The notes beneath the pieces were generated by a model. It was not told the origin of the DNA and searched no databases. It was given only the letters and a program-made list of their open reading frames with translations. Made by a program: the position numbers and the translations under genes. This document shows positions 123-19,834 of a stretch of 64,000 bases of DNA, piece by piece (the first letter of the stretch is position 1; every line of letters starts with the position of its first letter). This DNA comes from a phage. The stretch is taken from NCBI GenBank assembly GCA_025832235.1, contig GCA_025832235.1_3649.1; one strand, written 5' to 3'.

Positions 123-242
123 GTGTTTCAAGCCATGTTTATTGAGATGCTATCTGGGGTATTGTTACTGGTAGCCATCTTAGGTGGTGCAGTTCTGATG
201 TATAACTATCTTGAAAAAGGAGACAGCAATGGTAAAAAATAA
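123..242 (+). CDS. small hydrophobic peptide (about 39 aa, single predicted TM segment)
   Basis: Hand-translated ORF below the 60-aa track cut-off; GTG start 9 nt after GGGAGG (108-113); hydrophobic core LSGVLLLVAILGGAVL; overlaps next gene start. Confidence 0.3.
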   Translation: MFQAMFIEMLSGVLLLVAILGGAVLMYNYLEKGDSNGKK

Positions 243-414
243 ATCTTTAGAGCAGGCTGAAAACCTTCTCCACGAGCTGGTAAAGGAGTGGAAAGTTGAA
301 TACTCAGATTTTAATGCACGAGAGGGTGAAGATTATTGGCCTACGGAGCGCTCAGAGGGCGAATGGTATCAAGATTTTATAGAGTGGTTATATCAGACGT
401 GCGATGAGGGGTGA
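229..414 (+). CDS. hypothetical protein
   Basis: ORF track 211..414; ATG at 229 preceded by AAGGAG; no recognisable domain. Confidence 0.5.
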   Translation: MVKNKSLEQAENLLHELVKEWKVEYSDFNAREGEDYWPTERSEGEWYQDFIEWLYQTCDEG

Positions 415-881
415 CGATGTTTGTTAAATATGTAAAAACGTGCCTCAACAGTCTTGGCAGAGAGCATTGGTACACCTTGCTTGAAAAAGGGGAAATTTTA
501 ACAAAATCTGGAAAGATAACTTTGATACCTCTTGATAGTAAAGGTAAAGACCCGTCACGACTTGTTATAGATGATTACGTTACAGGTGTGACGTTCGAGG
601 TCTCTGTGGAGAGGTTAATACGCAGAGCTGGCGGCCCTTATGACCGAAGAGAGTATGTTTTCGATTCCGTTACAGAGATGGGGGAGCATCCGTCTTTAAT
701 GTTCAGGATGGTAATCAGAGATATGAGGTCATCTATAGATAGGATCGTAAAGGACATTAAGGAACCTTTTAGAGTAAAAGTTAAGAAGTTTTTCGATTCT
801 AAGATTAACATACTCGCCGTTGCACTAGGTGTAGTTCAACTTCTGTTAATTTTGCACTATTTTGAACTACTATTTAAGTAG
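411..881 (+). CDS. hypothetical protein with C-terminal hydrophobic segment
   Basis: ORF track; start overlaps upstream stop; C-terminus ILAVALGVVQLLLILHYF is TM-like. Confidence 0.55.
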   Translation: MTMFVKYVKTCLNSLGREHWYTLLEKGEILTKSGKITLIPLDSKGKDPSRLVIDDYVTGVTFEVSVERLIRRAGGPYDRREYVFDSVTEMGEHPSLMFRMVIRDMRSSIDRIVKDIKEPFRVKVKKFFDSKINILAVALGVVQLLLILHYFELLFK

Positions 882-943
882 TAGTTGAGATATGGCACAA
901 AGGATGTGCCATAGTGAAATAAACTAAGAAAGAGGTAGAGAGA

Positions 944-1291
944 ATGCCAAAGATTAAAACGTTATTACTGTGGGTAGCTGTTTTAGCTTTTATAGGGTAC
1001 TGGACTTGGGAAACTGAATTAAAAGATATCGGATATACCAGTCTTGAGAGCAAGGCGTGCATTGGCATAACCGATGCGTTCAGGCAAAATGCTATGGATC
1101 ACGAATGTGTTGATGCAGATATAGATGAGAAACTGTCTAAGGACAAAGATTTTTACCATGGGCATGCTTTACTTGATAGTGGTGACACTGTAGAGTTCTG
1201 GTCGTGGTTTCGTGAAGATGGAACAATAAAAACAGCAGTAAAGATTTCTAACAAAGAGTTAATGCTGTTGCAGCAAAAGGAGGCTCAATGA
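944..1291 (+). CDS. hypothetical membrane-anchored protein
   Basis: ORF track; SD GAAAGAGG upstream; N-terminal TM-like LLLWVAVLAFIGYW. Confidence 0.6.
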   Translation: MPKIKTLLLWVAVLAFIGYWTWETELKDIGYTSLESKACIGITDAFRQNAMDHECVDADIDEKLSKDKDFYHGHALLDSGDTVEFWSWFREDGTIKTAVKISNKELMLLQQKEAQ

Positions 1292-1575
1292 TTTGGATAT
1301 CCTATGCTGATGGCACCATGCTGTATACTGCAGGTACCAGATATGAAGTTCAGGAGAACGATAAAAAATTTATCGTAAAAACATTTGACAAGGACGACAA
1401 CCTTTTGCTAGAATTGACTTACAAAGTTGGAGAGGTATCCAATATCCAGTTGGATTGTGGTCATAAAGATAATCCACTCAAAAAACCTGGAGTAGGTAAG
1501 GCTTCAGAAGAACGTCTGTCTCGTATTGCAGAAAGCGTTTCTCCCCAAAAATCTAAGAAGAGGACTAGAAAATGA
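1288..1575 (+). CDS. hypothetical protein
   Basis: ORF track; start overlaps upstream stop (translational coupling). Confidence 0.55.
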   Translation: MIWISYADGTMLYTAGTRYEVQENDKKFIVKTFDKDDNLLLELTYKVGEVSNIQLDCGHKDNPLKKPGVGKASEERLSRIAESVSPQKSKKRTRK

Positions 1576-1766
1576 AAAACTTACGTTTTAACACTTATTA
1601 CTACAACACATTGAATGATTTGTATTATATTGTTCGAAGTAAAAGTCCTGAAACAGTCCTATTCTGCCGCGAACCTTTCAAAGGGGAGGAAGTAGAGTCT
1701 GAGATGAATGTTAGCCAGATCACCTCTTTGTTGCTCTCAGGCGCAATGGAAGAAGCAATATTCTAA
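1572..1766 (+). CDS. hypothetical protein
   Basis: ORF track; overlapping start/stop with upstream gene. Confidence 0.5.
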   Translation: MKNLRFNTYYYNTLNDLYYIVRSKSPETVLFCREPFKGEEVESEMNVSQITSLLLSGAMEEAIF

Positions 1767-1784
1767 ACCAGGCGGGAGGGTTTT

Positions 1785-1970
1785 ATGAAGCACTATTGCC
1801 TGTCTGGTAGAATGGGTGCAGATTGTGATTGGGTTTTCTTAAAACTTGTCAGCATTCGAGAGTTCATCCCAGAGGAAGAGCAAGAAAGCGAGCTGATGTC
1901 ATGGATCAACCATTACGGTAACACTTTTCGGCATGTTAAGGTAGAAGAGTTGCCAAGCGAGGCTGATTGA
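1785..1970 (+). CDS. hypothetical protein
   Basis: ORF track; SD GGGAGGG upstream. Confidence 0.5.
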   Translation: MKHYCLSGRMGADCDWVFLKLVSIREFIPEEEQESELMSWINHYGNTFRHVKVEELPSEAD

Positions 1971-1972
1971 CT

Positions 1973-2062
1973 ATGATTGCATCAATATTAACGTTTATGG
2001 GTGGCGTGGCATTCGGATTCATTGTTTGCCTGTTTATAGTGATTATGTCTATGCGAGGCTGA
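1973..2062 (+). CDS. small hydrophobic peptide (29 aa)
   Basis: Hand-translated MIASILTFMGGVAFGFIVCLFIVIMSMRG; fills the gap between 1970 and 2066; GAGG upstream. Confidence 0.35.
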   Translation: MIASILTFMGGVAFGFIVCLFIVIMSMRG

Positions 2063-2065
2063 ATT

Positions 2066-2362
2066 ATGAAACTTTTTGAGTGGTTTAAAAAGTTTAAATA
2101 TAAAGCTGTAGCCATCGTGCCGTGGTCCATTCAGTGGGTTGATGAAGGTGGTCTACCGATACCTGGTGACAAAGATACTGGGTACTGGATTATGATGGAG
2201 AACGGGTTTGGAAAGCGAAAGTATACGTGCACAAACTCTACTCGATCTGCACTTAATAGAGTGCCTGGTTACAAACTTATGGTTGTGTGGAAAATGTCAG
2301 GCGTGCCTCCAGCCAATGCTCAATTTCTTACTGACAATCCTACCACGGTAGAGGGAGATTGA
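2066..2362 (+). CDS. hypothetical protein
   Basis: ORF track. Confidence 0.55.
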   Translation: MKLFEWFKKFKYKAVAIVPWSIQWVDEGGLPIPGDKDTGYWIMMENGFGKRKYTCTNSTRSALNRVPGYKLMVVWKMSGVPPANAQFLTDNPTTVEGD

Positions 2363-2364
2363 TA

Positions 2365-2646
2365 ATGAAAAAGATTAACAGTAGTGAAGTCGAGTTTAAA
2401 CTTGTCGGAAAAGGCACTTACTGGGAAGTTCGTCAAAAGGTATATTTGTTCGGTCTTATTCCTTACTGGTCTAAATTCTACTGGGGAGCTAACGAGTGGG
2501 GAAGATACGCCACCAAATCAATGGCACTTATTGGTATAGCAGAGTACATTGCAGCCAGAGATAGGGTTGGAGACACTTATTACTATACTGCGGACGATAT
2601 TCGTAACAGTGTTTACGTCCCACAACCACCTGATGGAGACCGTTGA
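2365..2646 (+). CDS. hypothetical protein
   Basis: ORF track 2359..2646 (TTG); ATG at 2365 is 7 nt after GAGGGAG. Confidence 0.55.
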   Translation: MKKINSSEVEFKLVGKGTYWEVRQKVYLFGLIPYWSKFYWGANEWGRYATKSMALIGIAEYIAARDRVGDTYYYTADDIRNSVYVPQPPDGDR

Positions 2647-2870
2647 TGAAAGTTAAAGTTTTAGATTCGAGCTTCTATATTGGTCAGGAGCCCTTAGTGG
2701 GGAAAGTGTTTACTGCTGTCCCTAACGAAGATTACCCCGACCTTTTAAAAATAAAAGGGGCAGATCTTATTGCCGCTGGTGCATCTCAGGAATGCTTTGA
2801 CAGTCAGTGGACCTACAACTTTGCCCTAGGTGAGGATGTAGAGATAGTGGAGGACAATCATGAAGGTTAA
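2643..2870 (+). CDS. hypothetical protein, small early family A (MKVK-LDS...GADLI-AGA)
   Basis: ORF track; paralogous to 2860..3114 (shared MKVK(V/I)LDS, GKV, GADLI(A/T)AGA, acidic VE tail). Confidence 0.6.
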   Translation: MMKVKVLDSSFYIGQEPLVGKVFTAVPNEDYPDLLKIKGADLIAAGASQECFDSQWTYNFALGEDVEIVEDNHEG

Positions 2871-3114
2871 AATTCTTGATTCTAACGTCTACTTGGGACA
2901 ATCCTTCCTGAAGGGAAAGGTCGTTCCTGCGGTATACTTTGAAGGGTTGCCGTGGGATGATCCTGTTCGGCAACATCACAGTTATGTAGGCCACAACGTA
3001 GTGTTTATCTTAGGAGCAGACCTGATCACCGCTGGTGCACCTGAATATTATTTCGGGGAAGAGTCCTATTATGCCTTTGGGGTAGGGTCAGATGCAAATA
3101 TTGTAGAGCTGTGA
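2860..3114 (+). CDS. hypothetical protein, small early family A paralog
   Basis: ORF track; paralog of 2643..2870. Confidence 0.6.
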   Translation: MKVKILDSNVYLGQSFLKGKVVPAVYFEGLPWDDPVRQHHSYVGHNVVFILGADLITAGAPEYYFGEESYYAFGVGSDANIVEL

Positions 3115-3126
3115 TGGGTAACCGTT

Positions 3127-3525
3127 GTGAAAAATAAACTGTTTAAAGTTACAATGAAAATTCGCGGAGCTTGGAGCATAAAGCAAGGGCGTATTCCAGA
3201 ATTTGAGAAAGACTTCTACGTAGTCTCCACCTCGGAGGAGGCTGCATGCTGGCAAGCTGGCTATGCCTATGCAAGAACCTGGTACGAAGGATACCAGACT
3301 GGGGGCTATGACGGAGAAATTATCAGCAAGGGTGTAGAAGAAATTAATGTGTTGACAAGTGAAAAAGTTTTTGTTATAGTGCATCCAGATTCCAGAGTGA
3401 AGCATTACTGGAATGCCAGAACAAAAACTTGGACACCGTTTGCAGATTCTGCTACACCACTTTTAAACCAGAAAGCTCTTGACTCTGTCCCGAGCTATGG
3501 GGTTGTTGAAGAAAAGCTAAACTGA
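3127..3525 (+). CDS. hypothetical protein, family B (HYWNARTKTWTP motif)
   Basis: ORF track; paralogous to 5332..5727 (YYWDVLNNEWTP). Confidence 0.6.
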   Translation: MKNKLFKVTMKIRGAWSIKQGRIPEFEKDFYVVSTSEEAACWQAGYAYARTWYEGYQTGGYDGEIISKGVEEINVLTSEKVFVIVHPDSRVKHYWNARTKTWTPFADSATPLLNQKALDSVPSYGVVEEKLN

Positions 3526-3542
3526 AACAGTGGGGTACTAAC

Positions 3543-3833
3543 ATGATGGATTTAGTTCTGGACACTGATAACACCGGAGCGTTTAAAAAGGATGGTGTAA
3601 CAAGCGTTGACCAATCCTTCCCTGCCAAGATTGACTCAAAATGGACCTACAAGTTTGATGGAGAGATCTTCGCAAATGATGAGAAGGTTGTAGATGCTGC
3701 AGCCATTTTGAACGCTCTAGGGTACGACCCTGTGAATTCTTTGATCAAGGATCCTGTTGAGTTTGCAGAGTATGTTCGAAAAATGGCAGATCTTGCTGTG
3801 GATATTTTAAAAACTATCGACAACAATCTGTAA
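3543..3833 (+). CDS. hypothetical protein
   Basis: ORF track. Confidence 0.55.
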   Translation: MMDLVLDTDNTGAFKKDGVTSVDQSFPAKIDSKWTYKFDGEIFANDEKVVDAAAILNALGYDPVNSLIKDPVEFAEYVRKMADLAVDILKTIDNNL

Positions 3834-3839
3834 AAACTG

Positions 3840-3868
3840 TTGACACAACGCTTCAGATTTAGTATCAT
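3840..3868 (+). promoter_or_regulatory. sigma70-like promoter (TTGACA-N17-TATCAT) for the HPF-like gene
   Basis: TTGACA at 3840-3845, 17-nt spacer, TATCAT at 3863-3868. Confidence 0.5.
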
Positions 3869-3876
3869 TGTTTTCA

Positions 3877-3897
3877 AAGAGGGTTTGGTTCCCTCTT
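3877..3897 (+). promoter_or_regulatory. 5'-UTR stem-loop (AAGAGGG-7-CCCTCTT) followed by CTTT; possible dual terminator/leader hairpin
   Basis: Perfect 7-bp inverted repeat between promoter -10 and SD of 3916 gene. Confidence 0.45.
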
Positions 3898-3915
3898 CTT
3901 TAAAAGGAACACGTT

Positions 3916-4233
3916 ATGCAAATTGAAATCACTGGCAACGTAGAAATCACTGAAGGTATGGTGTCTTTCATTTCCAACAAAATGTCTAAACTGGAGCGTT
4001 TGCACCCCTCTGCCAACTATGCACGTGTGAGTGTAAAAGTTGAAAATGATCACCAGGAAGTTATGGCGTTCATTTTTGACAATTCTGGAAAAGAAGTTAT
4101 TGCCAAGGCTAAAGGTAGTGATGCTTACGAGGCAACTGACCGTATGGTAGATGTTGCAGCACGTCAGCTGGCTAAATGCGGTGGAAAGAAAGGTAAGGGG
4201 AAAGGCAAAGTAAAGATTGACTTTGGAAAATGA
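3916..4233 (+). CDS. hpf: ribosome hibernation-promoting factor / YfiA (RaiA) family homolog
   Basis: 105 aa; MQIEITGNVEITEGM...KLERL...VSVKVE...AKGSDAYEATDRMVDVAARQLAK parallels E. coli HPF (MQLNITGNNVEITEAL...KLEQY...VLKVE...AEGQDMYAAIDGLIDKLARQL) recalled from memory; Lys/Gly-rich tail; own promoter and SD. Confidence 0.75.
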   Translation: MQIEITGNVEITEGMVSFISNKMSKLERLHPSANYARVSVKVENDHQEVMAFIFDNSGKEVIAKAKGSDAYEATDRMVDVAARQLAKCGGKKGKGKGKVKIDFGK

Positions 4234-4242
4234 GGTGCTACA

Positions 4243-4344
4243 ATGGGTGTGATTAAGAAATTAGTCCCAAATGTAGAGATTGCATGCTTTGAAATTATGT
4301 TTGCAATCGCAGTTGTAGTTAATGTGTTAGGTTACGGCTATTAA
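4243..4344 (+). CDS. small hydrophobic peptide (33 aa)
   Basis: Hand-translated MGVIKKLVPNVEIACFEIMFAIAVVVNVLGYGY; GAGGTG SD 6 nt upstream. Confidence 0.35.
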   Translation: MGVIKKLVPNVEIACFEIMFAIAVVVNVLGYGY

Positions 4345-4370
4345 TATCAAATAATTGAGGAGACCTCTAA

Positions 4371-4640
4371 ATGAAAATTAAATTATTCAAAACTGAGCTG
4401 GCAGACAAAAACTGTGGACTGGTTGAAGGCATGATTGTTGAAGCACAACCAGTGGACTATATGAAGGTGGTTCGTGATGCCCTGGGTGAAGGTTTTGATC
4501 TGATGGAGCCAGCTCTGCGAGAAGATGTTATCGAGATGGCTAAAAAGCACACACCTGAAGGTTTGGTGGTGTTTGTTGCACCGGGTAACGGAGAAGAATT
4601 GATTGTAACTCCTGATGTGTATGAGATTGTAGAGGAATAA
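4371..4640 (+). CDS. hypothetical protein (acidic C-terminus ...VYEIVEE)
   Basis: ORF track; SD GAGGAG; C-terminal motif shared with 5000..5332, 5807..6064 and 6065..6415. Confidence 0.6.
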   Translation: MKIKLFKTELADKNCGLVEGMIVEAQPVDYMKVVRDALGEGFDLMEPALREDVIEMAKKHTPEGLVVFVAPGNGEELIVTPDVYEIVEE

Positions 4641-4731
4641 TCCTGCTTGGATTAGCATACTTCCTCGATAAGGAAGATTTGTAATTATTTGTGGGAAAGG
4701 AATCCCAATCTCTTACCAGAGGTGATACTAT

Positions 4732-4995
4732 ATGATTGTTTATTTTAAAACTTCAGGTGGATACCCTGATTCTCAAAGCTTGATCGGAAAAACGTGCACA
4801 GCATACTCACCTCTTGATGAGGAGGTAAGCGATATTCTACGAAATATGTATCGGATTGACCCCCAAGAAGCCTTTGATCAAAACCTTGTATTTGTCAAGG
4901 GTTCAGATATGAAGTCTTTGGGAGCATTCCCTGAAGCAGATGATGATGCCGTTTATTCGTTCATGACTCCTTTTGAAGCTATGGTTGTTGGGTGA
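4732..4995 (+). CDS. hypothetical protein
   Basis: ORF track; SD GAGGTG upstream. Confidence 0.55.
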   Translation: MIVYFKTSGGYPDSQSLIGKTCTAYSPLDEEVSDILRNMYRIDPQEAFDQNLVFVKGSDMKSLGAFPEADDDAVYSFMTPFEAMVVG

Positions 4996-4999
4996 TAAT

Positions 5000-5332
5000 A
5001 TGAAAGTACGCTTTATTGGTGAAACAATTCCTGTGCATCTCCGGTCTCCTGAGGATTCTGCAGATCTTGCATCTCAAAAGGCGAGAGGTTATGATAAGAA
5101 AGTAACCTCAACCGATGTAGTGCTTGAGGCTACCAGTCTACCTGACCCTGCTGCATTCTTTAATCATTATGGGTACTATTTCAGCAATCTGATGAATATC
5201 GGTGAGCTTGTGTTTATTAGTGGTGGAGAGATTGTTAGCAAGCTTGGCGGCGATCCAGATGTCTTTCATGAAACCTGTCCTTTTGCATTTGTGGTAGGTT
5301 CAGATGTGGAAGTTATTGAGGAGGTGCGGTAA
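5000..5332 (+). CDS. hypothetical protein (C-terminal ...VGSDVEVIEEVR)
   Basis: ORF track 4973..5332; in-frame ATG at 5000 avoids overlap with upstream gene. Confidence 0.5.
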   Translation: MKVRFIGETIPVHLRSPEDSADLASQKARGYDKKVTSTDVVLEATSLPDPAAFFNHYGYYFSNLMNIGELVFISGGEIVSKLGGDPDVFHETCPFAFVVGSDVEVIEEVR

Positions 5333-5727
5333 TGGTAAGCCTATACCGTGTTGAGTATAGCTCAGATACTGTATACAACGTAAGAAGCAAAGATCGCAGC
5401 GACAGAGTGCAAGAAATGTATGTTCTTGCCGACAGTCCGTTATCTGCAGCGTTCAAGGCAGGGGCTCTTGCATCTCGTTGGAAATTTGAAGGGGGATCTT
5501 TCTATGAAGAAACCCTTGAAGATTCTGTTGTTATTTCTTCTGTAGAGGTTTCAGACGACTACGAAGGGAAAAAGTTCGTAATGCGGCACCCACACAGCAA
5601 CATTGCGTACTACTGGGATGTTCTGAACAACGAGTGGACCCCAGATCTTCAGAAGGCTACTGTGCTAACACCGTTTTTGGCAGATAAGTTCCCACCAGAA
5701 GGTAATTTATCCGCACTGTTTCAGTAA
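5332..5727 (+). CDS. hypothetical protein, family B paralog (YYWDVLNNEWTP)
   Basis: ORF track; paralog of 3127..3525. Confidence 0.6.
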   Translation: MVSLYRVEYSSDTVYNVRSKDRSDRVQEMYVLADSPLSAAFKAGALASRWKFEGGSFYEETLEDSVVISSVEVSDDYEGKKFVMRHPHSNIAYYWDVLNNEWTPDLQKATVLTPFLADKFPPEGNLSALFQ

Positions 5728-5745
5728 TTTTCTTGCACACAGGTG

Positions 5746-5776
5746 TTGACAACGCCAACCCTGTGTGAAATAATAC
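5746..5776 (+). promoter_or_regulatory. sigma70-like promoter with -35 TTGACA embedded between an 8-bp inverted repeat (CACACAGG/CCTGTGTG)
   Basis: TTGACA 5746-5751; AT-rich -10 region AATAATAC 5769-5776; IR arms 5736-5743 and 5760-5767. Confidence 0.45.
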
Positions 5777-5806
5777 CTTCATCTTAACAAGACAGGAGAC
5801 CGATTG

Positions 5807-6744: not shown

Positions 6745-7031
6745 TGAAAGATCTGGTTAAGATTAAGATTAAAGATACCAATGGAGAACTCAGCCATTTT
6801 GGAATTAATGATGGTGACGAGCTGATCGCACACCTGCCTACCAAGGAGGTTGTAAGCAAAGCAGTTGCCGGAGAAGAAGCTGCAATGCAGGCTGCAGGTG
6901 TGGATGAAAACTATGTAGCTATGTGCATGTGCCGAGATCAGGTTGTTCTGTATAAAGCGTATCGACCAAACGGAGCCACGGAGTGGCTTGTATTCCGACC
7001 CGAAGGATATGAAATCTTAGAGGCACTATGA
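6744..7031 (+). CDS. hypothetical protein
   Basis: ORF track. Confidence 0.6.
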   Translation: MKDLVKIKIKDTNGELSHFGINDGDELIAHLPTKEVVSKAVAGEEAAMQAAGVDENYVAMCMCRDQVVLYKAYRPNGATEWLVFRPEGYEILEAL

Positions 7032-7111
7032 TAAATCTTGCCAAGGTTGCAACGGCACTGTTAATTATTTGCTGGTCAGTAACCTTAACACTGTGTCTTG
7101 TATTTCAGTGA
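7028..7111 (+). CDS. small hydrophobic peptide (27 aa)
   Basis: Hand-translated MINLAKVATALLIICWSVTLTLCLVFQ; ATGA overlap with upstream stop. Confidence 0.3.
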   Translation: MINLAKVATALLIICWSVTLTLCLVFQ

Positions 7112-7384: not shown

Positions 7385-7437
7385 CAGTATAGTGACTAAC
7401 AAGAGGTGAGGGGGTGACTGATTTTACTGAAGCTTTA

Positions 7438-7554
7438 ATGATGGCCTTGTCTGTTTTAGCGCTATCGGTGTGTTTTGGGGCGTTATTCACATCTCTGGTT
7501 AAAGTTTTACATACAGTATTATTACCCAAGGAGCGCAGTAATGACGAAGATTGA
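7438..7554 (+). CDS. small hydrophobic peptide (38 aa)
   Basis: Hand-translated MMALSVLALSVCFGALFTSLVKVLHTVLLPKERSNDED; overlaps start of 7541 gene. Confidence 0.3.
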   Translation: MMALSVLALSVCFGALFTSLVKVLHTVLLPKERSNDED

Positions 7555-8505: not shown

Positions 8506-8513
8506 GGTGGATT

Positions 8514-9075: not shown

Positions 9076-9177
9076 ATGGGATACACAATGAGAACATTGT
9101 CTGAAGTTTTAGTGGTGATCCTGATGATCATTACGTCCATAGCGGCTGTTGCCGGAATACTCACGGGTGGAACATGA
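9076..9177 (+). CDS. small hydrophobic peptide (33 aa)
   Basis: Hand-translated MGYTMRTLSEVLVVILMIITSIAAVAGILTGGT; SD GGAGA; ATGA overlap with next gene. Confidence 0.35.
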   Translation: MGYTMRTLSEVLVVILMIITSIAAVAGILTGGT

Positions 9178-12945: not shown

Positions 12946-13005
12946 GTGTAATAAGTATAACAAAAAACAGGACCATAGCAAGCCCTGTTTTGTAGTTTAT
13001 AAATA

Positions 13006-13197: not shown

Positions 13198-13346
13198 TTT
13201 TATCGCTCTTTAAAACAAGGTGCCAACCGTTTCCAATAGATCACTGACTATCAGGACAATACTGATCAGCACATACCTAACCATAAAGGGAAAGATCGCC
13301 AACATTGCCGCCACGATTCCCATGGTGATAATTATCTTTCTCATGA

Positions 13347-13631: not shown

Positions 13632-13722
13632 TGTGTCTATCCTCTTTCTGCTACGTTTAAGGCGGCGGTAACCGCCTGTTTAAGCTTTGTTGGTTAATTT
13701 TCGGGTATCGGTATAAATTAAA

Positions 13723-13938: not shown

Positions 13939-13947
13939 TTGTCAACC

Positions 13948-14052
13948 TCACCCGATACCGTTGGAAGACAAGATCACATTAGCCATGGTTGCAATCAGGC
14001 CAATACCCAGGGCAATAACCAGGATCACCGCATCAATTAATTTCTGTTTCAT
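13948..14052 (-). CDS. small hydrophobic peptide (34 aa)
   Basis: Hand-translated MKQKLIDAVILVIALGIGLIATMANVILSSNGIG; SD GAAGAGGAAAAC. Confidence 0.3.
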   Translation of the reverse strand: MKQKLIDAVILVIALGIGLIATMANVILSSNGIG

Positions 14053-14142
14053 TTTGTTTTCCTCTTCTTGTTCCAGGTGGCGGACCATTCCACCGCCTTA
14101 TGTATTATGCTTTGTAAGATGGTTGTTTGTTTTCAAACTATT

Positions 14143-14322
14143 TTAACGATAATCATCGTACGCTTTATTAACCTGGCGAATATAACATTCAAAAGCCAGA
14201 TCAATAGATTTATATTCACGGATATACTCACCATAGGAAACCACATACATTTCTATAGCTTCCTCATATGCGAGGAGAATAGAATCCAAGCCTACGATCT
14301 CAGTCTTTGCAATAATAGCCAT
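14143..14322 (-). CDS. hypothetical protein (59 aa)
   Basis: Hand-translated ORF just under the track cut-off; SD AAAGAGGATAAAAATC before ATG. Confidence 0.4.
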   Translation of the reverse strand: MAIIAKTEIVGLDSILLAYEEAIEMYVVSYGEYIREYKSIDLAFECYIRQVNKAYDDYR

Positions 14323-14369
14323 GATTTTTATCCTCTTTGTGGTTGGTGGGGCTTGCCCCTTTGATTTAT

Positions 14370-14397
14370 ATACTACAGTCTTATATGGTCATGTCAA
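14370..14397 (-). promoter_or_regulatory. sigma70-like promoter (TTGACA-N16-TAGTAT) followed by 5'-UTR hairpin at 14348-14359
   Basis: Plus-strand TGTCAA 14392-14397; hairpin GGGG-CTTG-CCCC. Confidence 0.4.
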
Positions 14398-14627
14398 CTA
14401 TTTTCAAAAAATTTTTCTGCTGTAATATTTTTCCCGGTAGGGTTCGCTACTTTCAAAATTCTATCATGCACCGGACGCCCAAAAGAATAAGCGCCGTACA
14501 CAGTAAACCAATAATCGCCGTCAGGCTGTACTATTACCGCCGCATATGGTACGCCTTTTTCGTTTTTGCTGACAAAATAGATCACATTGCCATTAATAAC
14601 CTCAGCGCGTTTAATTTGTTCCATCAT
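14394..14627 (-). CDS. hypothetical protein
   Basis: ORF track. Confidence 0.55.
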   Translation of the reverse strand: MMEQIKRAEVINGNVIYFVSKNEKGVPYAAVIVQPDGDYWFTVYGAYSFGRPVHDRILKVANPTGKNITAEKFFENS

Positions 14628-14681
14628 GATGATTTACCTCTCTTTATTTTCATAATTGGGGCCTTTTCGGCCCCGCCAGGT

Positions 14682-14966
14682 TTATTTATTGATAGCGTGC
14701 AGCGGGAAAGCTACGCCAGGTTGATAGATAACCTTTACAACCTCATCAGGACAAAAGAAATTGCAGAACTCACCGCAATAGGCCTCATCCTCTTTTAATT
14801 CTTCATCAGCATACTCAAAAAAGTAGTCGATGCTTGGATAATCCTGCCCTGGGTTATAGTCAACCATTGTCAAGACCAGTTCAAGATCGTTGCGCAGGAT
14901 ATGCATACCCGCTTTTAAGTATTTTGCTTCCATTTCTACTACATCGCCAGCGGTAACAATAGCCAT
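14682..14966 (-). CDS. hypothetical acidic protein
   Basis: ORF track 14682..15014; internal ATG at 14966 (MAIVTAGD...) follows AGGAG. Confidence 0.5.
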   Translation of the reverse strand: MAIVTAGDVVEMEAKYLKAGMHILRNDLELVLTMVDYNPGQDYPSIDYFFEYADEELKEDEAYCGEFCNFFCPDEVVKVIYQPGVAFPLHAINK

Positions 14967-15107
14967 AGTTTTAACTCCTGTTTCTGTTAATGATTGGGGG
15001 CCGCCCCCTGACACGTACTATTATCCATATTGTAGGGCTTGATGCAAGTACTTCTTTAAAAAAATTTTTAAGCGCCTTGGAGGCCGTTGTAACGCCAAAA
15101 TAATAAA

Positions 15108-15127
15108 GGCCATGCGGTTGCATGGCC
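15108..15127 (-). terminator. rho-independent terminator (GGCCATGC-GGTT-GCATGGCC)
   Basis: 8-bp stem; on minus strand followed by UUUAUUAUUUU; downstream of stop of 15189..15494. Confidence 0.5.
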
Positions 15128-15188
15128 TTTATGTGATTATATCGCTGTAGGCCCTGCTAGGGGCCTTATTTTGCATCATTTGCCGGAA

Positions 15189-15494
15189 CTATACAGAGAA
15201 AACATCGTTCACAATAGCGATCACAATGCCGCCCACCTTGTCACGGTCAACAATGCACAAATCACCATAGATCATGTGGTAGTCTGGATGATCTTTCACG
15301 GAATAGTCAATGAGCGTTTTCTTGTCGTCCAGCTTTGTAACTTCCATTCTCATAACGATATGAGAATCATCAAAGGCATTATTCCGAAAAGTCATAGCCT
15401 GACCACCAGGGCACCCAGTGATCTCCACTTCCACACCATCTACGATCTGACCATCAAAGAAATAAAGATTATTAGCCTGGATAAACATGATCAT
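15189..15494 (-). CDS. hypothetical protein
   Basis: ORF track; SD AAGGAG. Confidence 0.55.
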   Translation of the reverse strand: MIMFIQANNLYFFDGQIVDGVEVEITGCPGGQAMTFRNNAFDDSHIVMRMEVTKLDDKKTLIDYSVKDHPDYHMIYGDLCIVDRDKVGGIVIAIVNDVFSV

Positions 15495-15535
15495 TACTCC
15501 TTGTTAACTGCGTGGTATTTTAACAGGGTTTAAAT

Positions 15536-15579
15536 TTACTTTATTGATGGCCCTAGAGTCAAGGCCATCTAAAAATAAA
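15536..15579 (-). promoter_or_regulatory. conserved 45-bp element, copy 1: hairpin GATGGCC...GGCCATC with TTGACT in the loop, then TAAATT (-10-like)
   Basis: Near-identical to copies at 19248-19292 and 19868-19912. Confidence 0.5.
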
Positions 15580-15581
15580 TT

Positions 15582-15782
15582 TTACAGGCCTACAATCTCT
15601 TTGATTCGTTTAACCGCCGCCTCAGCGCCTTGGGGGTAAAAATTATGGTAACCAATCACGCGAGTGATACTAATCGCCGTTTGATGATCTTCATAGTCGC
15701 CCTTGAAGATTTCTTGACCGTCAATCAGCACGGCAATTTTTTCTTCTTTTTTGAAGTTAATAACGCGGATATTGTTGCTCAT
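15582..15782 (-). CDS. hypothetical protein
   Basis: ORF track. Confidence 0.55.
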   Translation of the reverse strand: MSNNIRVINFKKEEKIAVLIDGQEIFKGDYEDHQTAISITRVIGYHNFYPQGAEAAVKRIKEIVGL

Positions 15783-16040
15783 TTTTGTTTCTCCTTTCTG
15801 GTTTTTGTGTTGGTGGGGATGTTTCCCCGTTGATTGTTATTATCCATATTCAGGACCGGATTGCAACACCCCGGAAGAAAAATTTTTTGAAAAAAGTTAG
15901 GCCCCCAGGGATCGGGGGCCGTTATCAGTTACTTACAGAGATAAAATACATCCCTACGCCTAACAATATTTCAAGGGCGATGATCTCAAGCCATACCATA
16001 ACACGGCGCACCTTATCGGTGCGGGGCTTATCCTTGGGTG

Positions 16041-16286
16041 TCATCGTCTCCCCCTTCCCTCCTGGTAGTAGTGACGTGGTTTACAATGGCCCCCAGGAGT
16101 ACCATCACCACGCACATCACAAGAAAAATTATCTCCGCTGTTGTTCGATCCATTGTTATAAAATTCCTCAAGATCAGGCCTGAAAATAAAGCGTTCGTTA
16201 TTGAATCCGTCACGCCAGGCGGCTGGCTTCAAATCTTCACTAAAGGGATTAATTAACGTGGCATTATTTAAACGGTTGGCCCACAT
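16041..16286 (-). CDS. hypothetical protein
   Basis: ORF track 16041..16304 (TTG); ATG at 16286; overlaps 3' end of 16264..16635 in another frame, so uncertain. Confidence 0.35.
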   Translation of the reverse strand: MWANRLNNATLINPFSEDLKPAAWRDGFNNERFIFRPDLEEFYNNGSNNSGDNFSCDVRGDGTPGGHCKPRHYYQEGRGRR

Positions 16287-16635
16287 ATTTTCTATTCCTC
16301 TCAAATAGGCGATCCGCCTCAGTTAAACATATCTCATGGGCTTGATCTCTGGTTTTAGCTTCATCGAAAACTTGTTGTGCAAGGCTGCAACGCAAGGAGA
16401 CCGGAAGATCACTATAATAGGCGTTGACAAACGTTTGAGCGTCGTACAGGTCTGAAAATACTTTACCCTTTCTATTATTCCCCTTGTCAACAATTGCAAG
16501 GATAACCAATACAATAGTTGCAACCACCCCCAGGAAAATAGATATAATAAACCATAAAAAGGCGGATCTACCCATCTTGCCAGCGATCCAGGCGTTAAAC
16601 AAGGCAACCAATACAGCCAAAATAATAAATTCCAT
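16264..16635 (-). CDS. hypothetical membrane protein (two predicted TM helices)
   Basis: ORF track 16264..16668; ATG 16635 follows AAAGAGG; TM-like MEFIILAVLVALFNAWIAG and FLWFIISIFLGVVATIVLVILAIV. Confidence 0.55.
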   Translation of the reverse strand: MEFIILAVLVALFNAWIAGKMGRSAFLWFIISIFLGVVATIVLVILAIVDKGNNRKGKVFSDLYDAQTFVNAYYSDLPVSLRCSLAQQVFDEAKTRDQAHEICLTEADRLFERNRKYVGQPFK

Positions 16636-16699
16636 TCTATGTACCTCTTTTGCAGTTCTGTTTAACAATAAGGCGGCAAATATGCCGCCTGTTACCTGA

Positions 16700-17080
16700 T
16701 TAAAAATTATCGCCGTAAATCTTTCCGCTTTCTGCCCACACCACCACGCGGGGCATACTATCCCACACGTCTTGTTTTAGATTGAGCGCGTGCAATTCTT
16801 CGGTGGTGCCCATACCTGGCACGGGCTGATTGTATACTGCAAAACGACCACCCGCATAGTCATAGGCCAGAGTTAAATCACACTGGATCATCTTTTTGAT
16901 CATGGCATTAAGCATGGCATTAGCCGCATACTGATCACGTTTTAAAGGCAACTCTTTGATTAGTTTGCGATAGTTTTCAATGTGATCGCACACTGTTTCA
17001 CGTGGAAGATCTTTCATATCCTCGCGAAAGGTAACCAGGTTAAACATGACGGTGTCAATAGCTTTAGTAGTGTTTTTCAT
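16700..17080 (-). CDS. hypothetical protein
   Basis: ORF track 16700..17113; ATG 17080 follows AGAGGAAAAC. Confidence 0.55.
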   Translation of the reverse strand: MKNTTKAIDTVMFNLVTFREDMKDLPRETVCDHIENYRKLIKELPLKRDQYAANAMLNAMIKKMIQCDLTLAYDYAGGRFAVYNQPVPGMGTTEELHALNLKQDVWDSMPRVVVWAESGKIYGDNF

Positions 17081-17171
17081 GATGTTTTCCTCTTTGTTTT
17101 GTGTGGGGGGCAAACGTCTTGCCCCCTTGAGTTTTAATATAGCAGGTTTTTAGGTTATTGCAACACTTTAT

Positions 17172-17795
17172 TTATGAAAAAGTCATCTCGCCATATTCAT
17201 CCACATCAAACCGCCAATCATTGGCCTCGATAAGGCCGATCAGGTTTTCGGTAGTGAATTGTTCAAGATAGGCTTGCTCCAGGTCTACGTAAACCTTGCG
17301 GGATAGCTCCCGTACCGTCTCGGTGATCAGCTCTTCCAGCTCTTCAACTTTATCCTCTTGCTTGGTGGTCAGGTCTAGCCAATTGGTATCGATGCACCCG
17401 CCTATTGTGTTTTCGTGGTGATAATGGCTAAACGGGATACGCTCAACGCTTGCGGATAGCTCGCCATCGTGCATTGTGCCGAACAAGTGACGAATTGAGC
17501 GGAATTTAGTCAAAGACTTGACTTTACGCAAGAATTTTTCTAAGTTTACATTTTCAGCGCTAATTGACGCGCCGTCACCCTGGCACCAAAAGCCGGACCA
17601 ATGTACATCTGTATCTTCAAGCCCGTACTCTGGAAAAACATATTCTTTATAGTATTCAATTACACTTTCTGCAAAAAAGTTATCCCCGCTGTGTTCTTCT
17701 CTTTCGCGGACCATTTCAACGGCTTTTTCTTTTTGTTCGTCGGTCAGCACGTCGAAAGATAAATTGTAACCTGTGGTAATGTTAACGGTGGTCAT
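17172..17795 (-). CDS. hypothetical protein
   Basis: ORF track; own promoter and hairpin; no motif recognised. Confidence 0.6.
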   Translation of the reverse strand: MTTVNITTGYNLSFDVLTDEQKEKAVEMVREREEHSGDNFFAESVIEYYKEYVFPEYGLEDTDVHWSGFWCQGDGASISAENVNLEKFLRKVKSLTKFRSIRHLFGTMHDGELSASVERIPFSHYHHENTIGGCIDTNWLDLTTKQEDKVEELEELITETVRELSRKVYVDLEQAYLEQFTTENLIGLIEANDWRFDVDEYGEMTFS

Positions 17796-17823
17796 GATAT
17801 TTTCTCCTATTTTCTTTGTTGGT

Positions 17824-17842
17824 GGCGGGAAGTTTTCCCGCC
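17824..17842 (-). promoter_or_regulatory. 5'-UTR stem-loop (GGCGGGAA-3-TTCCCGCC)
   Basis: 8-bp GC stem a few nt downstream of the predicted -10. Confidence 0.5.
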
Positions 17843-17852
17843 TGTGTGTTTA

Positions 17853-17880
17853 AGTATACTTATCGAGATTTACTTGTCAA
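17853..17880 (-). promoter_or_regulatory. sigma70-like promoter (TTGACA-N16-TATACT)
   Basis: -35 overlaps last codons of upstream gene 17870..18130; -10 TATACT. Confidence 0.55.
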
Positions 17881-18130
17881 CACTATTTTTTAAATTATTG
17901 TGGCGCAAAATGTTTAAAATCTCTTCAACGTCATCAACACGGCGGCAATTTTTAAACGCTACCAATTGCCCCATGATTTTAATCACTGGGCGGCCTTGCC
18001 AGTGCCCCTGAAGAAAGCGCGCCTTGACTTTATCGGTGGAACTATCACGCCACCAAATAGCCTTGTTGTTGCAGTAGTAAAAATTATTCAGGATAACATC
18101 AACTTTATCAAAATTTTTTAATTTACGCAT
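17870..18130 (-). CDS. hypothetical protein
   Basis: ORF track. Confidence 0.55.
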   Translation of the reverse strand: MRKLKNFDKVDVILNNFYYCNNKAIWWRDSSTDKVKARFLQGHWQGRPVIKIMGQLVAFKNCRRVDDVEEILNILRHNNLKNSVDK

Positions 18131-18535
18131 GGCGTTTACTCCTTTCTCTCTTTGATGTGGTTAGTATAGCTAACCTGTTGACGATGTCAATGATATTTTT
18201 AACGCCATAAAACGGCCCTGGGCGATGTTTTCAGGTTAAAGGGGGCGATTGCATAGGTGGGGGCCTTTTTGGCACTTACAGGGCCAACCAGGGGCGCTAT
18301 TCGTAGGATAGAAATAAAAAGCCCCGCACAATGGCGGGGCGTTGGTTGTTATTTGTCTTTATGGCGGTACCGTTCCGCCTGTCGTTCACGTTCCAAAAGC
18401 AGGCCCGGCAGTTTACGATCATAATGATTCCGCCAGATCTTCCCAAATCTTTTTGGCTTATTCAGTTTATTGTTCCGCTGGCGGCGTTCCGGCAGCTCTT
18501 CGGAATCATGAGATCGCTTTAAAATCTTTTCAAAA

Positions 18536-18883
18536 TTAATCTTCATATATTCCCCCCTTGCTAACTTCAATATTGGCCTGAATAGCCCGGATACGGCGCT
18601 TTATAACTTCCTGATCTGTGTGATCGTATCCCCAAAAGTCTACAATTTTTGCGCCCCCAGCTTCCAGGCGGTACAGTGTTTCCTGCATTTTGTAAGCCGG
18701 GATCGGTCGCGGTGTTACTTGGTCACCTTCTTTATTTTTATACTTTATAATATAATCTTCATTATCGTTGAATGTCCAAAATGGATATTCTGCAAGGGCG
18801 GTACTTTCCTTTTTATCCTGGATCTTGTTTACAATTAAAGCCGTAGCAATAGCGCCAATAATAAAACTAGCCCCGCTGATCAT
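18536..18883 (-). CDS. hypothetical membrane-anchored protein
   Basis: ORF track 18536..18946; ATG 18883 follows GAAAGGAG; N-terminal TM-like ISGASFIIGAIATALIV. Confidence 0.55.
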   Translation of the reverse strand: MISGASFIIGAIATALIVNKIQDKKESTALAEYPFWTFNDNEDYIIKYKNKEGDQVTPRPIPAYKMQETLYRLEAGGAKIVDFWGYDHTDQEVIKRRIRAIQANIEVSKGGIYED

Positions 18884-18958
18884 GTACTTTCTCCTTTCAT
18901 TGTGTTGATAAACTATCTTTATAGATGGCCCTGCTACCAGGACCACCGAAAAACCAGC

Positions 18959-19204
18959 TTATTTGACGATACCGACAAAACAGATCCCGCCTTCCCCTAT
19001 ATAGGCGATATCGGTAATTTGATAATTTGTCAAGATCCGCGTGTTCAGATCATTAATAAAATCGGTCATCGCGTTGGTGTAGTTGTCTTCCGTGTCTAAG
19101 GCATAATCCCAGGTGTAAACCTTTTTACGTCCGAAGCCTTTTACCATGATACGGGCGCTTTTGGTGTTGGTAGGGGCATAATATTTGGTAATTAGTGCGG
19201 CCAT
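18959..19204 (-). CDS. hypothetical protein
   Basis: ORF track; SD GAGGAG. Confidence 0.55.
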   Translation of the reverse strand: MAALITKYYAPTNTKSARIMVKGFGRKKVYTWDYALDTEDNYTNAMTDFINDLNTRILTNYQITDIAYIGEGGICFVGIVK

Positions 19205-19247
19205 TGTTTTAACTCCTCTGTATTAGTTCAGTGTTAACAGTGTAAAG

Positions 19248-19292
19248 TTTACTTTATTGATGGCCCTGGAGTCAAGGCCATCTAAAAATAAA
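19248..19292 (-). promoter_or_regulatory. conserved 45-bp element, copy 2 (hairpin with TTGACT in loop + TAAACT)
   Basis: Immediately downstream of stop of 19294..19635 and about 45 nt upstream of 18959..19204 start. Confidence 0.5.
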
Positions 19293-19293
19293 T

Positions 19294-19635
19294 TTACTCG
19301 TTTTCTTCCAGTTCTGCAAGCTCTTCTTTCACTTCTTCAAGCTCTGTTTGCAATTCCTGGTATTCTTCATCGTCCTCAATATCCAGGCTGTCGATGTAGT
19401 CGCTAAATCCGCAGCGGTAAGCGATAGGATCTAACTCCTTGAGGATACGCGACGGAAGAAAAGAAATGTTTCCGATCATAATTTCGCCATAGATCTCGTC
19501 TAACCATTCATCATAGTTTTCGTCGTACTTGTCCTCGTCGATTTCAAAATTATCGATCTTGTTCTCAAGGTCTGCGATCTGTTTTTTCAGCGCGGCGATC
19601 TGCATGGCTTTTTCTGTGGCGGTCATAGTAGTCAT
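19294..19635 (-). CDS. hypothetical highly acidic protein
   Basis: ORF track; about 30% Asp+Glu with acidic C-terminal tail; own promoter/hairpin. Confidence 0.55.
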   Translation of the reverse strand: MTTMTATEKAMQIAALKKQIADLENKIDNFEIDEDKYDENYDEWLDEIYGEIMIGNISFLPSRILKELDPIAYRCGFSDYIDSLDIEDDEEYQELQTELEEVKEELAELEENE

Positions 19636-19660
19636 AGTGTTTTCTCCTTTTGTGTGCTTT

Positions 19661-19673
19661 GGGAAGTTTTCCC
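19661..19673 (-). promoter_or_regulatory. 5'-UTR stem-loop (GGGAA-3-TTCCC)
   Basis: Same hairpin family. Confidence 0.45.
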
Positions 19674-19686
19674 GTTTACGTGTTTA

Positions 19687-19714
19687 AGTATACTGATTTA
19701 AGTTAGCTTGTCAA
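19687..19714 (-). promoter_or_regulatory. sigma70-like promoter (TTGACA-N16-TATACT)
   Basis: Plus-strand TGTCAA 19709-19714 and AGTATA 19687-19692. Confidence 0.55.
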
Positions 19715-19834
19715 TTAAAAGTTTAAGAAAAATTTTGCTACACCGTTGGCACTACCCATCAACATTTGCGCCAGGATGTAACCAATGATGCAAACGATAA
19801 TAGTTACCTTTGTGTGCTGGCGTGTAGTACTCAT
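19715..19834 (-). CDS. small hydrophobic peptide (39 aa)
   Basis: Hand-translated MSTTRQHTKVTIIVCIIGYILAQMLMGSANGVAKFFLNF; SD AAGGGGG; preceded by element copy 3. Confidence 0.4.
   Translation of the reverse strand: MSTTRQHTKVTIIVCIIGYILAQMLMGSANGVAKFFLNF

What the first reader, a model, noticed from the sequence alone, without database searches (positions are those of the whole stretch)
123..19834. Multiple unannotated small hydrophobic peptides (27-39 aa)
Hand translation of gaps between track ORFs finds short ORFs with plausible SDs and a single hydrophobic helix each (123-242, 1973-2062, 4243-4344, 7028-7111, 7438-7554, 9076-9177, 13948-14052, 19715-19834). Several are translationally coupled (ATGA overlaps). 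Such peptides often act as membrane-targeting modulators, holin/antiholin-like factors or superinfection-exclusion proteins.
Basis: inference. Interest (0 to 1): 0.45.

Follow-up and report, generated by a model that had tools for sequence, protein, structure and literature searches.

The report
Small membrane peptide genes, rV5-like phage
The eight short hydrophobic reading frames are real, conserved genes for tiny single-helix membrane proteins of an rV5-like E. coli phage, but seven are already in public databases as hypothetical or membrane proteins, and none has a known function.

Summary
The window is a Vequintavirus (rV5-like E. coli myophage), 98.8% identical to phage MaxTheCat. All eight ORFs exist, with corrections. 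Two (13948-14052 and 19715-19834) lie on the minus strand. The fifth starts at 7414 (46 aa) and the sixth probably at 9088 (29 aa).

Every frame is intact in the 11-16 related loci that still hold the DNA. Pooled substitutions give omega ~0.24 (P = 8e-25), while the two alternative frames look neutral. Each peptide has one strong hydrophobic helix. Nine such coding-strand ORFs are observed against 0.27 expected from shuffles.

They are therefore genuine small membrane protein genes in the phage's small-gene clusters. "Unannotated" is mostly wrong: five are listed as "membrane protein, 1 TMD" in the 2013 rV5 paper, six have PHROG families, and seven are in NCBI.

Two points are new. The 27-aa ORF at 7028-7111 is annotated in none of the 60 records listed (118 match). 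The 29-aa ORF at 1973-2062 is a present/absent cassette also found in E. coli prophages, where it heads a tandem array of tiny membrane-peptide ORFs.

Function is unknown. Modulation of membrane proteins is the most likely role, and a holin role is unlikely.

The parts
123..242 (+). c1: 39-aa single-helix membrane peptide (rV5 gp131 / ORF131; phrog_15251). The start is GTG here and ATG in the TP4, FV3, NHEP1 and ECML-10 loci.
   Evidence: Intact in 14 related loci, with one in-frame 3-nt insertion (Aya). 23 synonymous vs 5 non-synonymous changes, omega 0.06, P = 2e-11; variable sites by codon position 2/2/19. Hydropathy 2.55. Listed as 'membrane protein, 1 TMD' in rV5 Table S3.
1973..2062 (+). 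c2: 29-aa membrane peptide on a 96-nt cassette bounded by the direct repeat GCGAGGCTGA (1957-1966 and 2053-2062).
   Evidence: Present in 91 phage records, against 122 that match the surrounding region. Cleanly deleted between the repeats in A147, Aya and an IMG/VR relative. Omega 0.27, P = 0.02. Annotated in the BASEL phages sampled and NHEP1, but not in the other annotated records sampled. The segment from Shine-Dalgarno motif to stop codon is also found in prophages of 10 of 5426 complete E. coli genomes at 77-89% nt identity, with the ORF intact.
4243..4344 (+). c3: 33-aa membrane peptide, 9 nt downstream of the ribosome hibernation factor homologue (rV5 gp145; phrog_15151).
   Evidence: Intact in 15 related loci. 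In one (Campylobacter phage D#) the first ATG is lost and the Met two codons downstream serves as start. Omega 0.39, P = 0.07, which is weak because the region barely varies. Codons 13-33 have 2 variable columns in 60 nt. Listed as 'membrane protein, 1 TMD'.
7028..7111 (+). c4: 27-aa membrane peptide whose start overlaps the upstream stop codon (ATGA). It is not annotated in any record examined.
   Evidence: Intact in 14 related loci: 11 synonymous vs 6 non-synonymous changes, omega 0.19, P = 8e-4. An IMG/VR relative at 51% nt identity keeps exactly 27 codons and a hydrophobic core. RNA fold z = -0.41, so no structure signal. No CDS in the 60 records listed of 118 matching. The exact peptide is absent from the 15-billion-protein collection, and there is no PHROG hit.
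7414..7554 (+). c5: 46-aa membrane peptide (rV5 gp156; phrog_16755).
   Evidence: Intact in 15 related loci, with a conserved N-terminus and ATG at the 7414 position in most. Omega 0.21, P = 2e-5. A sigma-70-like promoter lies at 7365-7393. Homologues number only 11 clusters, all 46 aa and >=78% identical.
9088..9177 (+). c6: 29-aa membrane peptide (33 aa if it starts at 9076; phrog_34195). Its stop overlaps the start of the next gene (ATGA).
   Evidence: Intact in 16 of 17 related loci and replaced in NHEP1. The distant IMG/VR relative keeps the ORF from the second ATG. Omega 0.21, P = 7e-4; the downstream gene's frame gives omega 0.60 over the same bases. The N-terminal extension of the downstream gene annotated in rV5 and A51.2 is closed or lacks a start codon here and in several relatives. 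A promoter-like site lies at 9027-9055.
13948..14052 (-). c7: 34-aa membrane peptide (rV5 gp173, which is annotated as 46 aa from 14088; phrog_14631).
   Evidence: Intact in 12 related loci. There are two allelic types with a diverged N-terminal half, the same length, and a conserved C-terminus ATMANxILSS(N/H)GIG. The 12-codon extension is separated from the core by a ~320-380-nt insertion in other phages. Omega 0.45, P = 0.002.
19715..19834 (-). c8: 39-aa membrane peptide (rV5 gp193; phrog_16391).
   Evidence: Intact in 14 related loci, with one in-frame 3-nt deletion in the IMG/VR relative. Omega 0.21, P = 7e-5; variable sites 9/1/12. Listed as 'membrane protein, 1 TMD'.
19687..19714 (-). 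Sigma-70-type promoter (TTGACA-16-TATACT, 11 of 12 matches) abutting the c8 stop codon.
   Evidence: The homologous site is annotated as promoter P192 in rV5. The A/T-rich 3' end of c8 may serve as its upstream element; that is inference.
13210..13344 (-).
15925..16044 (-).
   Evidence: The corresponding 120-nt CDS in A51.2 is annotated 'putative membrane protein'.

Best explanation
The eight ORFs, plus two more of the same kind, are genuine protein-coding genes. Each encodes a 27-46-aa protein with a single membrane-spanning helix. They lie in the two convergent clusters of small accessory genes of a Vequintavirus.

Shown: the reading frames are conserved and under amino-acid-level purifying selection. 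Each has its own ribosome-binding site or is coupled to a neighbouring gene. Each has one strongly hydrophobic helix.

Inferred: they are transcribed by host RNA polymerase from the many sigma-70-type promoters in these clusters, inserted into the inner membrane, and act by binding larger host or phage membrane proteins. That is how characterised bacterial small membrane proteins work. The likely purposes are host takeover, exclusion of competing phages, or counter-defence. The family is restricted to the genus, one gene is present or absent between strains, and another has two alleles, so they look like dispensable accessory genes rather than core functions. The specific targets are unknown.
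For: The window is a Vequintavirus.

Frames are intact wherever the DNA is present, in 11-16 related loci per ORF, and the only indels within ORFs are in-frame.

Pooled substitutions are 122 synonymous and 96 non-synonymous, omega 0.24, binomial P = 8e-25. The +1 and +2 frames give 0.97 and 1.67. Seven of the eight are individually significant at P <= 0.02.

Diverged relatives keep ORF length and hydrophobicity: c4 at 51% nt identity, the two c7 alleles, and c6.

Hydropathy is 2.35-2.83 for all eight, with 9 such ORFs observed against 0.27 expected.

The c2 homology in unrelated temperate prophages runs exactly from the Shine-Dalgarno motif to the stop codon, with conservative substitutions.

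Sigma-70-like promoters with 10-11 of 12 matches are interspersed, at 7365, 9027 and 19714 among others, and the rV5 authors report similar promoters genome-wide.

The rV5 authors' TMHMM/Phobius scan called five of them 1-TMD membrane proteins.

Precedents: small membrane proteins as modulators of larger membrane proteins (review PMC12648545), and an early small membrane protein of a staphylococcal phage that blocks cell division (PMC11237401).
Against: There is no expression evidence of any kind. No transcriptome, ribosome-profiling or proteomic data for these peptides were found, and none of them carries MS evidence in rV5 Table S3.

There is no homology to any characterised protein in Pfam, NCBIfam, PADLOC or the PDB, so the mode of action rests only on analogy.

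Substitution counts are small per ORF and not fully independent phylogenetically. c3 is not individually significant (P = 0.07), and its near-invariance at synonymous sites suggests an additional nucleotide-level constraint. The 3' end of c8 overlaps sequence that may be constrained as a promoter upstream element.

Topology and membrane insertion are predicted from hydropathy only.
Confidence: 0.8

Rival explanations
1. They are chance open frames in T-rich spacers between real genes and have no product.
For: Short hydrophobic ORFs do arise by chance: 4% of the 464 six-frame ORFs of 25-50 aa in the window reach hydropathy 2.2.
Against: Purifying selection is frame-specific (P = 8e-25) and the other frames look neutral. 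Frames are intact in all relatives that hold the DNA, and indels are in-frame. Shuffles give 0.27 such ORFs against 9 observed. Hydrophobic short ORFs outside these clusters are all embedded in long genes.
Confidence: 0.03
2. They are lysis-timing factors (holin or antiholin-like). This applies mainly to c1, which lies two genes downstream of the putative two-helix holin gp129.
For: The rV5 authors proposed gp129 (78 aa, two helices, charged C-terminus) as the holin, and it ends just before the window. c1 has one helix and a charged C-terminal tail.
Against: The holin assignment is itself unverified. The peptides are 27-46 aa with one helix, whereas holins usually have 2-3 helices according to the rV5 paper. 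The lysin gp89 is about 22 kb away in rV5. The eight ORFs are scattered over 20 kb on both strands and are not in a cassette.
Confidence: 0.08
3. They are superinfection-exclusion or inter-phage competition factors that block DNA entry or development of other phages at the membrane. c2 is the best candidate.
For: c2 is shared with temperate prophages. There it lies between the lysis genes and the terminase, a region where temperate phages commonly carry accessory genes (my own knowledge), and it heads a variable array of tiny membrane-peptide ORFs. c2 is present or absent among otherwise near-identical phages, as expected for an arms-race gene.
Against: No phenotype data exist. The known exclusion proteins I recall, such as T4 Imm and Sp, are larger (my own knowledge, not tested here). 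The other seven peptides have no counterpart in E. coli genomes.
Confidence: 0.15
4. They are toxic membrane-depolarising peptides, like type I toxins, used to shut the host down.
For: Their size and hydrophobicity resemble Hok, TisB and Ibs-type peptides (my own knowledge).
Against: No antisense RNA family or other Rfam match was found in 1-21000. Most sit inside tightly packed gene runs rather than as separate toxin loci. A temperate prophage carrying c2 argues against strong toxicity.
Confidence: 0.08
5. Only the act of translating them matters (coupling or leader ORFs that set expression of the next gene), or the conservation reflects overlapping DNA or RNA signals rather than the peptide.
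For: c4 and c6 overlap neighbouring genes by ATGA. The c3 helix-coding part has almost no synonymous variation and folds somewhat better than shuffles (z = -2.25). A strong promoter abuts the c8 stop codon.
Against: Selection acts on the amino-acid sequence (omega 0.06-0.45), and diverged alleles keep a hydrophobic helix. A pure coupling ORF would not require that. The c4 region shows no RNA-structure signal.
Confidence: 0.06

Closest known systems
Vequintavirus hypothetical small membrane proteins (rV5 gp131, gp145, gp156, gp173, gp193; PHROGs 15251, 15151, 16755, 34195, 14631, 16391)
   Same: These are the same genes. Full-length PHROG matches have E = 1e-21 to 1e-36. The exact sequences are in NCBI. 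Five are listed as 1-TMD membrane proteins in rV5 Table S3.
   Different: c4 has no entry anywhere. c2 has no PHROG of its own and is rarely annotated. All have unknown function.
Bacterial small membrane proteins that modulate larger membrane proteins (for example AcrZ, MgrB, MgtS, CydX; review PMC12648545)
   Same: They are 50 aa or shorter with one hydrophobic helix and short tails, and are often missed by annotation.
   Different: There is no sequence similarity. These are phage-encoded and no partner is known.
Phage early small membrane proteins that inhibit host processes (for example staphylococcal phage PhiNM1 Gp11, PMC11237401)
   Same: A small membrane protein encoded among phage early or accessory genes.
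   Different: No homology was detected, the host is different, and growth inhibition has not been tested here.
Holins and antiholins
   Same: They are membrane-inserted phage proteins, and c1 lies near the putative holin gp129.
   Different: These peptides are much shorter, have one helix, are not next to the lysin, and are scattered over 20 kb on both strands.
Accessory genes of temperate phages between the lysis and packaging modules (here in mEp021-like coliphages)
   Same: The c2 cassette occupies that position in E. coli prophages, in a variable array of tiny membrane-peptide ORFs.
   Different: In the window c2 sits in a virulent phage's small-gene cluster, and the other array members are absent from the window.

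Membership tests
PHROG families of Vequintavirus small proteins | Significant full-length match to the family profile | tested here: met
   c1, c3, c5, c6, c7 and c8 match over their whole length (E 4e-21 to 4e-36). c2 has only a weak partial hit and c4 has none.
Single-helix small membrane proteins (50 aa or shorter) | Length of 50 aa or less with one hydrophobic segment long enough to span the membrane | tested here: met
   Lengths are 27-46 aa. Maximum 17-aa Kyte-Doolittle mean is 2.35-2.83 for all eight. The rV5 authors' TMHMM/Phobius scan called five of them 1-TMD membrane proteins.
Single-helix small membrane proteins (50 aa or shorter) | The protein is actually made and sits in the membrane | not testable with these tools
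   No expression or fractionation data were found.
Holins | Usually 2-3 membrane helices and a charged C-terminus | tested here: not met
   Each has one helix. Only c1 and c5 have charged C-terminal tails. The criterion is taken from the rV5 paper.
Holins | Genetic linkage to the endolysin or a lysis cassette | tested here: not met
   The rV5 lysin gp89 is at 71.5 kb and these genes lie at 94-115 kb. Only c1 is near the unverified putative holin gp129.
Holins | Late expression and a lysis phenotype | not testable with these tools
   Only promoter-like consensus sites are available.
Type I toxin-antitoxin peptides | Small hydrophobic peptide | tested here: met
Type I toxin-antitoxin peptides | A cognate antisense or overlapping RNA antitoxin at a separate locus | tested here: inconclusive
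   No Rfam family reaches its threshold in 1-21000, and most ORFs sit inside packed gene runs. An undescribed RNA cannot be excluded.
Superinfection-exclusion proteins | Expression reduces infection by other phages | not testable with these tools
   There is no sequence match to any defence model in PADLOC. A phenotype assay is needed.

The most novel reading that the evidence does not exclude
Two things go beyond what is annotated.

(1) 7028-7111 is a conserved 27-aa membrane microprotein gene that appears to be missing from every deposited Vequintavirus annotation.

(2) The 29-aa gene at 1973-2062 is a self-contained 96-nt cassette exchanged between virulent rV5-like phages and temperate mEp021-like prophages. 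In those prophages it heads a hypervariable tandem array of about nine tiny single-helix peptide ORFs between the lysis and packaging genes.

If these arrays are functional, coliphages would share a pool of interchangeable membrane microproteins, possibly used for exclusion or counter-defence, that current annotation largely overlooks.
Probability: 0.25. Interest if true: 0.55.

Novelty: already known. Interest (0 to 1): 0.28.

Why it matters
For most of these ORFs the result is a confirmation. They are real genes, already deposited, and typical of the many tiny membrane proteins that large virulent phages carry with no assigned function. The practical value has three parts:

- A corrected gene list for this phage group: one ORF (c4) apparently missing from all annotation, two rarely annotated, corrected starts, and a probable mis-extension of a neighbouring gene.
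- A natural experiment for function, because c2 is present in about three quarters of otherwise near-identical phages and absent from the rest.
- A lead to arrays of very small membrane-peptide genes in temperate coliphages.

Tried and rejected
- Searches for relatives outside the genus found almost nothing. Sensitive blastn of 1-8000 found only Vequintavirus, plus one 146-nt hit in a Klebsiella phage. IMG/VR scans seeded with two neighbouring proteins gave very few useful loci.
- A concatenated query of the other candidates, plus the two extra small ORFs, against 5426 E. coli genomes gave no match.
- tblastn of c2 against the phage collection found only the same 91 records.
- The search for homologous proteins refuses queries under 40 aa. 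For the 46-aa c5 it found only 11 clusters, all >=78% identical.
- Pfam, NCBIfam, PADLOC and PDB sequence searches gave nothing above noise.
- An RNA explanation was tested and rejected for c4 (fold z = -0.41). It was left open as an additional layer for c3. Rfam and tRNA scans were empty.
- Literature searches found no transcriptome, ribosome-profiling or functional study of these peptides.
- Structure prediction was not run, because a single helix would not discriminate between the hypotheses.
- The other members of the prophage array have no homologue in the window.

Full report
**Identity of the window.** Bases 1-10000 match 122 phage records at 90-99% identity, with Escherichia phage MaxTheCat best at 98.8%. 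All are Vequintavirus (rV5-like myophages). Bases 10000-20500 match the same group at about 92-94% with several indels. Sensitive blastn finds no DNA-level relative outside the genus. Genes at 1-9900 run rightward and genes from about 12000 run leftward. The two clusters converge on an ORF-free stretch. The rV5 paper describes the same layout: "88 mainly small ORFs" and a non-coding gap.

**The observation.** All eight ORFs exist, with these corrections:
- 13948-14052 and 19715-19834 are open only on the minus strand.
- The fifth ORF starts at 7414. The start is GTG here and ATG in most relatives, and the N-terminus MTDFTEAL is conserved, so the product is 46 aa rather than 38.
- The sixth ORF most likely starts at the second ATG, 9088. 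The PHROG profile and the most distant relative both begin there.
- For the seventh, the 34-aa core is the conserved unit. The 12-codon extension seen here and in rV5 is separated from the core by an inserted gene in other phages.
- ATGA overlaps exist at the start of 7028-7111 and at the end of 9076-9177. The other ORFs are closely packed or overlap neighbours by 14-23 nt.

Each ORF has a Shine-Dalgarno-like motif. Each has one strongly hydrophobic stretch, with a 17-aa Kyte-Doolittle maximum of 2.35-2.83.

**Is it more than chance?** On the coding strands of the two clusters there are nine ORFs of 25-50 aa with hydropathy >=2.3. Across 300 dinucleotide-chain shuffles the mean is 0.27 and the maximum is 2. 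In the remaining 44 kb of the window, every comparably hydrophobic short ORF lies inside a long ORF.

**Are they genes?** I collected the homologous regions from up to 16 related loci (GenBank phages and IMG/VR contigs) at 84-99% identity.
- Wherever the DNA is present, the reading frame is intact.
- The only length changes within ORFs are in-frame: +3 nt in c1 of Aya and -3 nt in c8 of an IMG/VR contig.
- Counting distinct codon states gives 122 synonymous and 96 non-synonymous changes over 189 synonymous and 615 non-synonymous sites. That is omega 0.24, binomial P = 8e-25. The same columns read in the +1 and +2 frames give omega 0.97 and 1.67.
- Individually, P ranges from 2e-11 (c1) to 0.02 (c2). 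Only c3 falls short, at 0.07, because it hardly varies at all.
- Diverged copies keep length and hydrophobicity. c4 in an IMG/VR relative is 51% identical at the DNA level yet still 27 codons with a hydrophobic core. c7 has two alleles with different N-terminal halves and an identical length.
- RNA structure does not explain c4 (z = -0.41).
- For c6, the alternative annotation is an N-terminal extension of the downstream gene, as in rV5 ORF162 and A51.2. That extension is closed or lacks a start codon in this window and in several relatives, and its frame shows weaker constraint (omega 0.60 against 0.21).

I conclude that these are protein-coding genes for small single-helix membrane proteins. 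The counts are small per ORF and not fully independent phylogenetically. There is no expression evidence.

**Are they unannotated?** Mostly not.
- rV5 Table S3 (2013) lists gp131 (c1), gp145 (c3), gp156 (c5), gp173 (c7) and gp193 (c8) as "membrane protein, 1 TMD".
- Six of the eight have their own PHROG family of unknown function.
- Seven exact sequences are in NCBI.
- c2 and c6 are annotated mainly in the BASEL phages.
- c4 is the exception. It has no PHROG hit, its exact sequence is absent from a 15-billion-protein collection, and it has no CDS in any of the 60 records listed out of 118 that match.

**The c2 cassette.** c2 is present in 91 phage records, against 122 that match the surrounding region. 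In the others examined it is cleanly absent, and the deletion lies between two copies of GCGAGGCTGA that include the ribosome-binding sites of c2 and of the next gene.

The same unit, from ribosome-binding site to stop codon, occurs at 77-89% identity in prophages of 10 of 5426 complete E. coli genomes, with the ORF intact and conservative substitutions. There it lies after holin-lysozyme-Rz and a 180-aa gene and before the small terminase. It is the first of about nine tightly packed ORFs of 20-47 aa, each hydrophobic, and nearly all preceded by a Shine-Dalgarno-like motif. These ORFs are conserved between two prophages. Related temperate phages of the mEp021 group carry different combinations of such ORFs at this locus. 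None of the other array members, and none of the other candidates, is shared between the window and E. coli genomes.

**Function.** There is no similarity to anything characterised in Pfam, NCBIfam, PADLOC or the PDB. The 46-aa c5 has only 11 homologous clusters, all at least 78% identical. No functional or expression study was found.

The clusters contain many sigma-70-type promoters. One lies just before c5, one just before c6, and one abuts the c8 stop codon. By analogy with bacterial small membrane proteins (PMC12648545) and with phage early membrane proteins (PMC11237401), the most likely mode of action is binding to, and modulation of, larger membrane proteins. The patchy distribution points to accessory roles such as exclusion or counter-defence.

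A holin role is unlikely given one helix, 27-46 aa, no linkage to the lysin, and scatter over 20 kb. c1 does lie two genes downstream of the unverified putative holin gp129, so a lysis-related role for c1 alone cannot be excluded.

**Verdict.** The kind is known and the members are mostly known. The modest new items are c4 as an overlooked gene and c2 as a mobile micro-gene linked to prophage arrays.

Noticed in passing
L027 6015-6966 (E. coli PAR chromosome NZ_CP012379) and L028 6015-6754 (E. coli M1/5 NZ_CP053296): There is a tandem array of about nine ORFs of 20-47 aa, each with one hydrophobic helix, tightly packed or overlapping, and nearly all preceded by a Shine-Dalgarno-like motif. It lies between the lysis genes plus a 180-aa gene and the small terminase of a prophage. 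The c2 homologue is the first member. RefSeq annotates only one CDS within the array. mEp021-like temperate phages carry different combinations at the same locus.
   Followed up: partly
window 4280-4339: The helix-coding part of c3 has only 2 variable columns in 60 nt among seven diverse genomes, against about 5-8 per 30 nt in the flanking genes. Synonymous change is therefore also suppressed. The predicted RNA fold of 4225-4375 is modestly better than shuffles on both strands (z about -2.3). Cause unknown.
   Followed up: partly
window about 9950-12000: This ORF-free stretch at the convergence of the two gene clusters corresponds to the rV5 'non-coding' region. It holds three copies of ACTGTTTACGCATA-like motifs at 30-nt spacing (11215, 11245, 11275) plus two more elsewhere. 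It also has an exact 20-nt direct repeat (11297 and 11525), perfect 18-nt and 14-nt inverted repeats, and A/T-rich AACAATT repeats. There is no tRNA and no Rfam match. An origin or other cis-acting region is possible.
   Followed up: partly
window 6744-7031 versus L004 7026-7296 (rV5 ORF153/154): The 95-aa ORF that is intact here and in MaxTheCat, FV3, TP4 and A51.2 is split into two overlapping ORFs in the rV5 record. The coordinate offset changes by 2 nt across it. This suggests a frameshift or a sequencing error in rV5.
   Followed up: no
window 9174-9386 and relatives (rV5 ORF162, A51.2 A512_106): The gene after c6 is annotated with N-terminal extensions of 31 or 67 codons in some records, and these overlap c6 in another frame. 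The extension is closed or has no start codon in this window and in several relatives, so it is probably an over-extension.
   Followed up: partly
   Followed up: partly
GenBank records MG0656xx ('Campylobacter phage', UNVERIFIED): About 18-24 records labelled as Campylobacter jejuni phages are Vequintavirus genomes 95-98% identical to E. coli phages. The host label looks doubtful.
   Followed up: no
just upstream of window position 1 (L004 59-295, rV5 gp129): The 78-aa, two-helix protein proposed as the rV5 holin ends at about window position 9-13, so the window starts inside a possible lysis-related gene neighbourhood.
   Followed up: no
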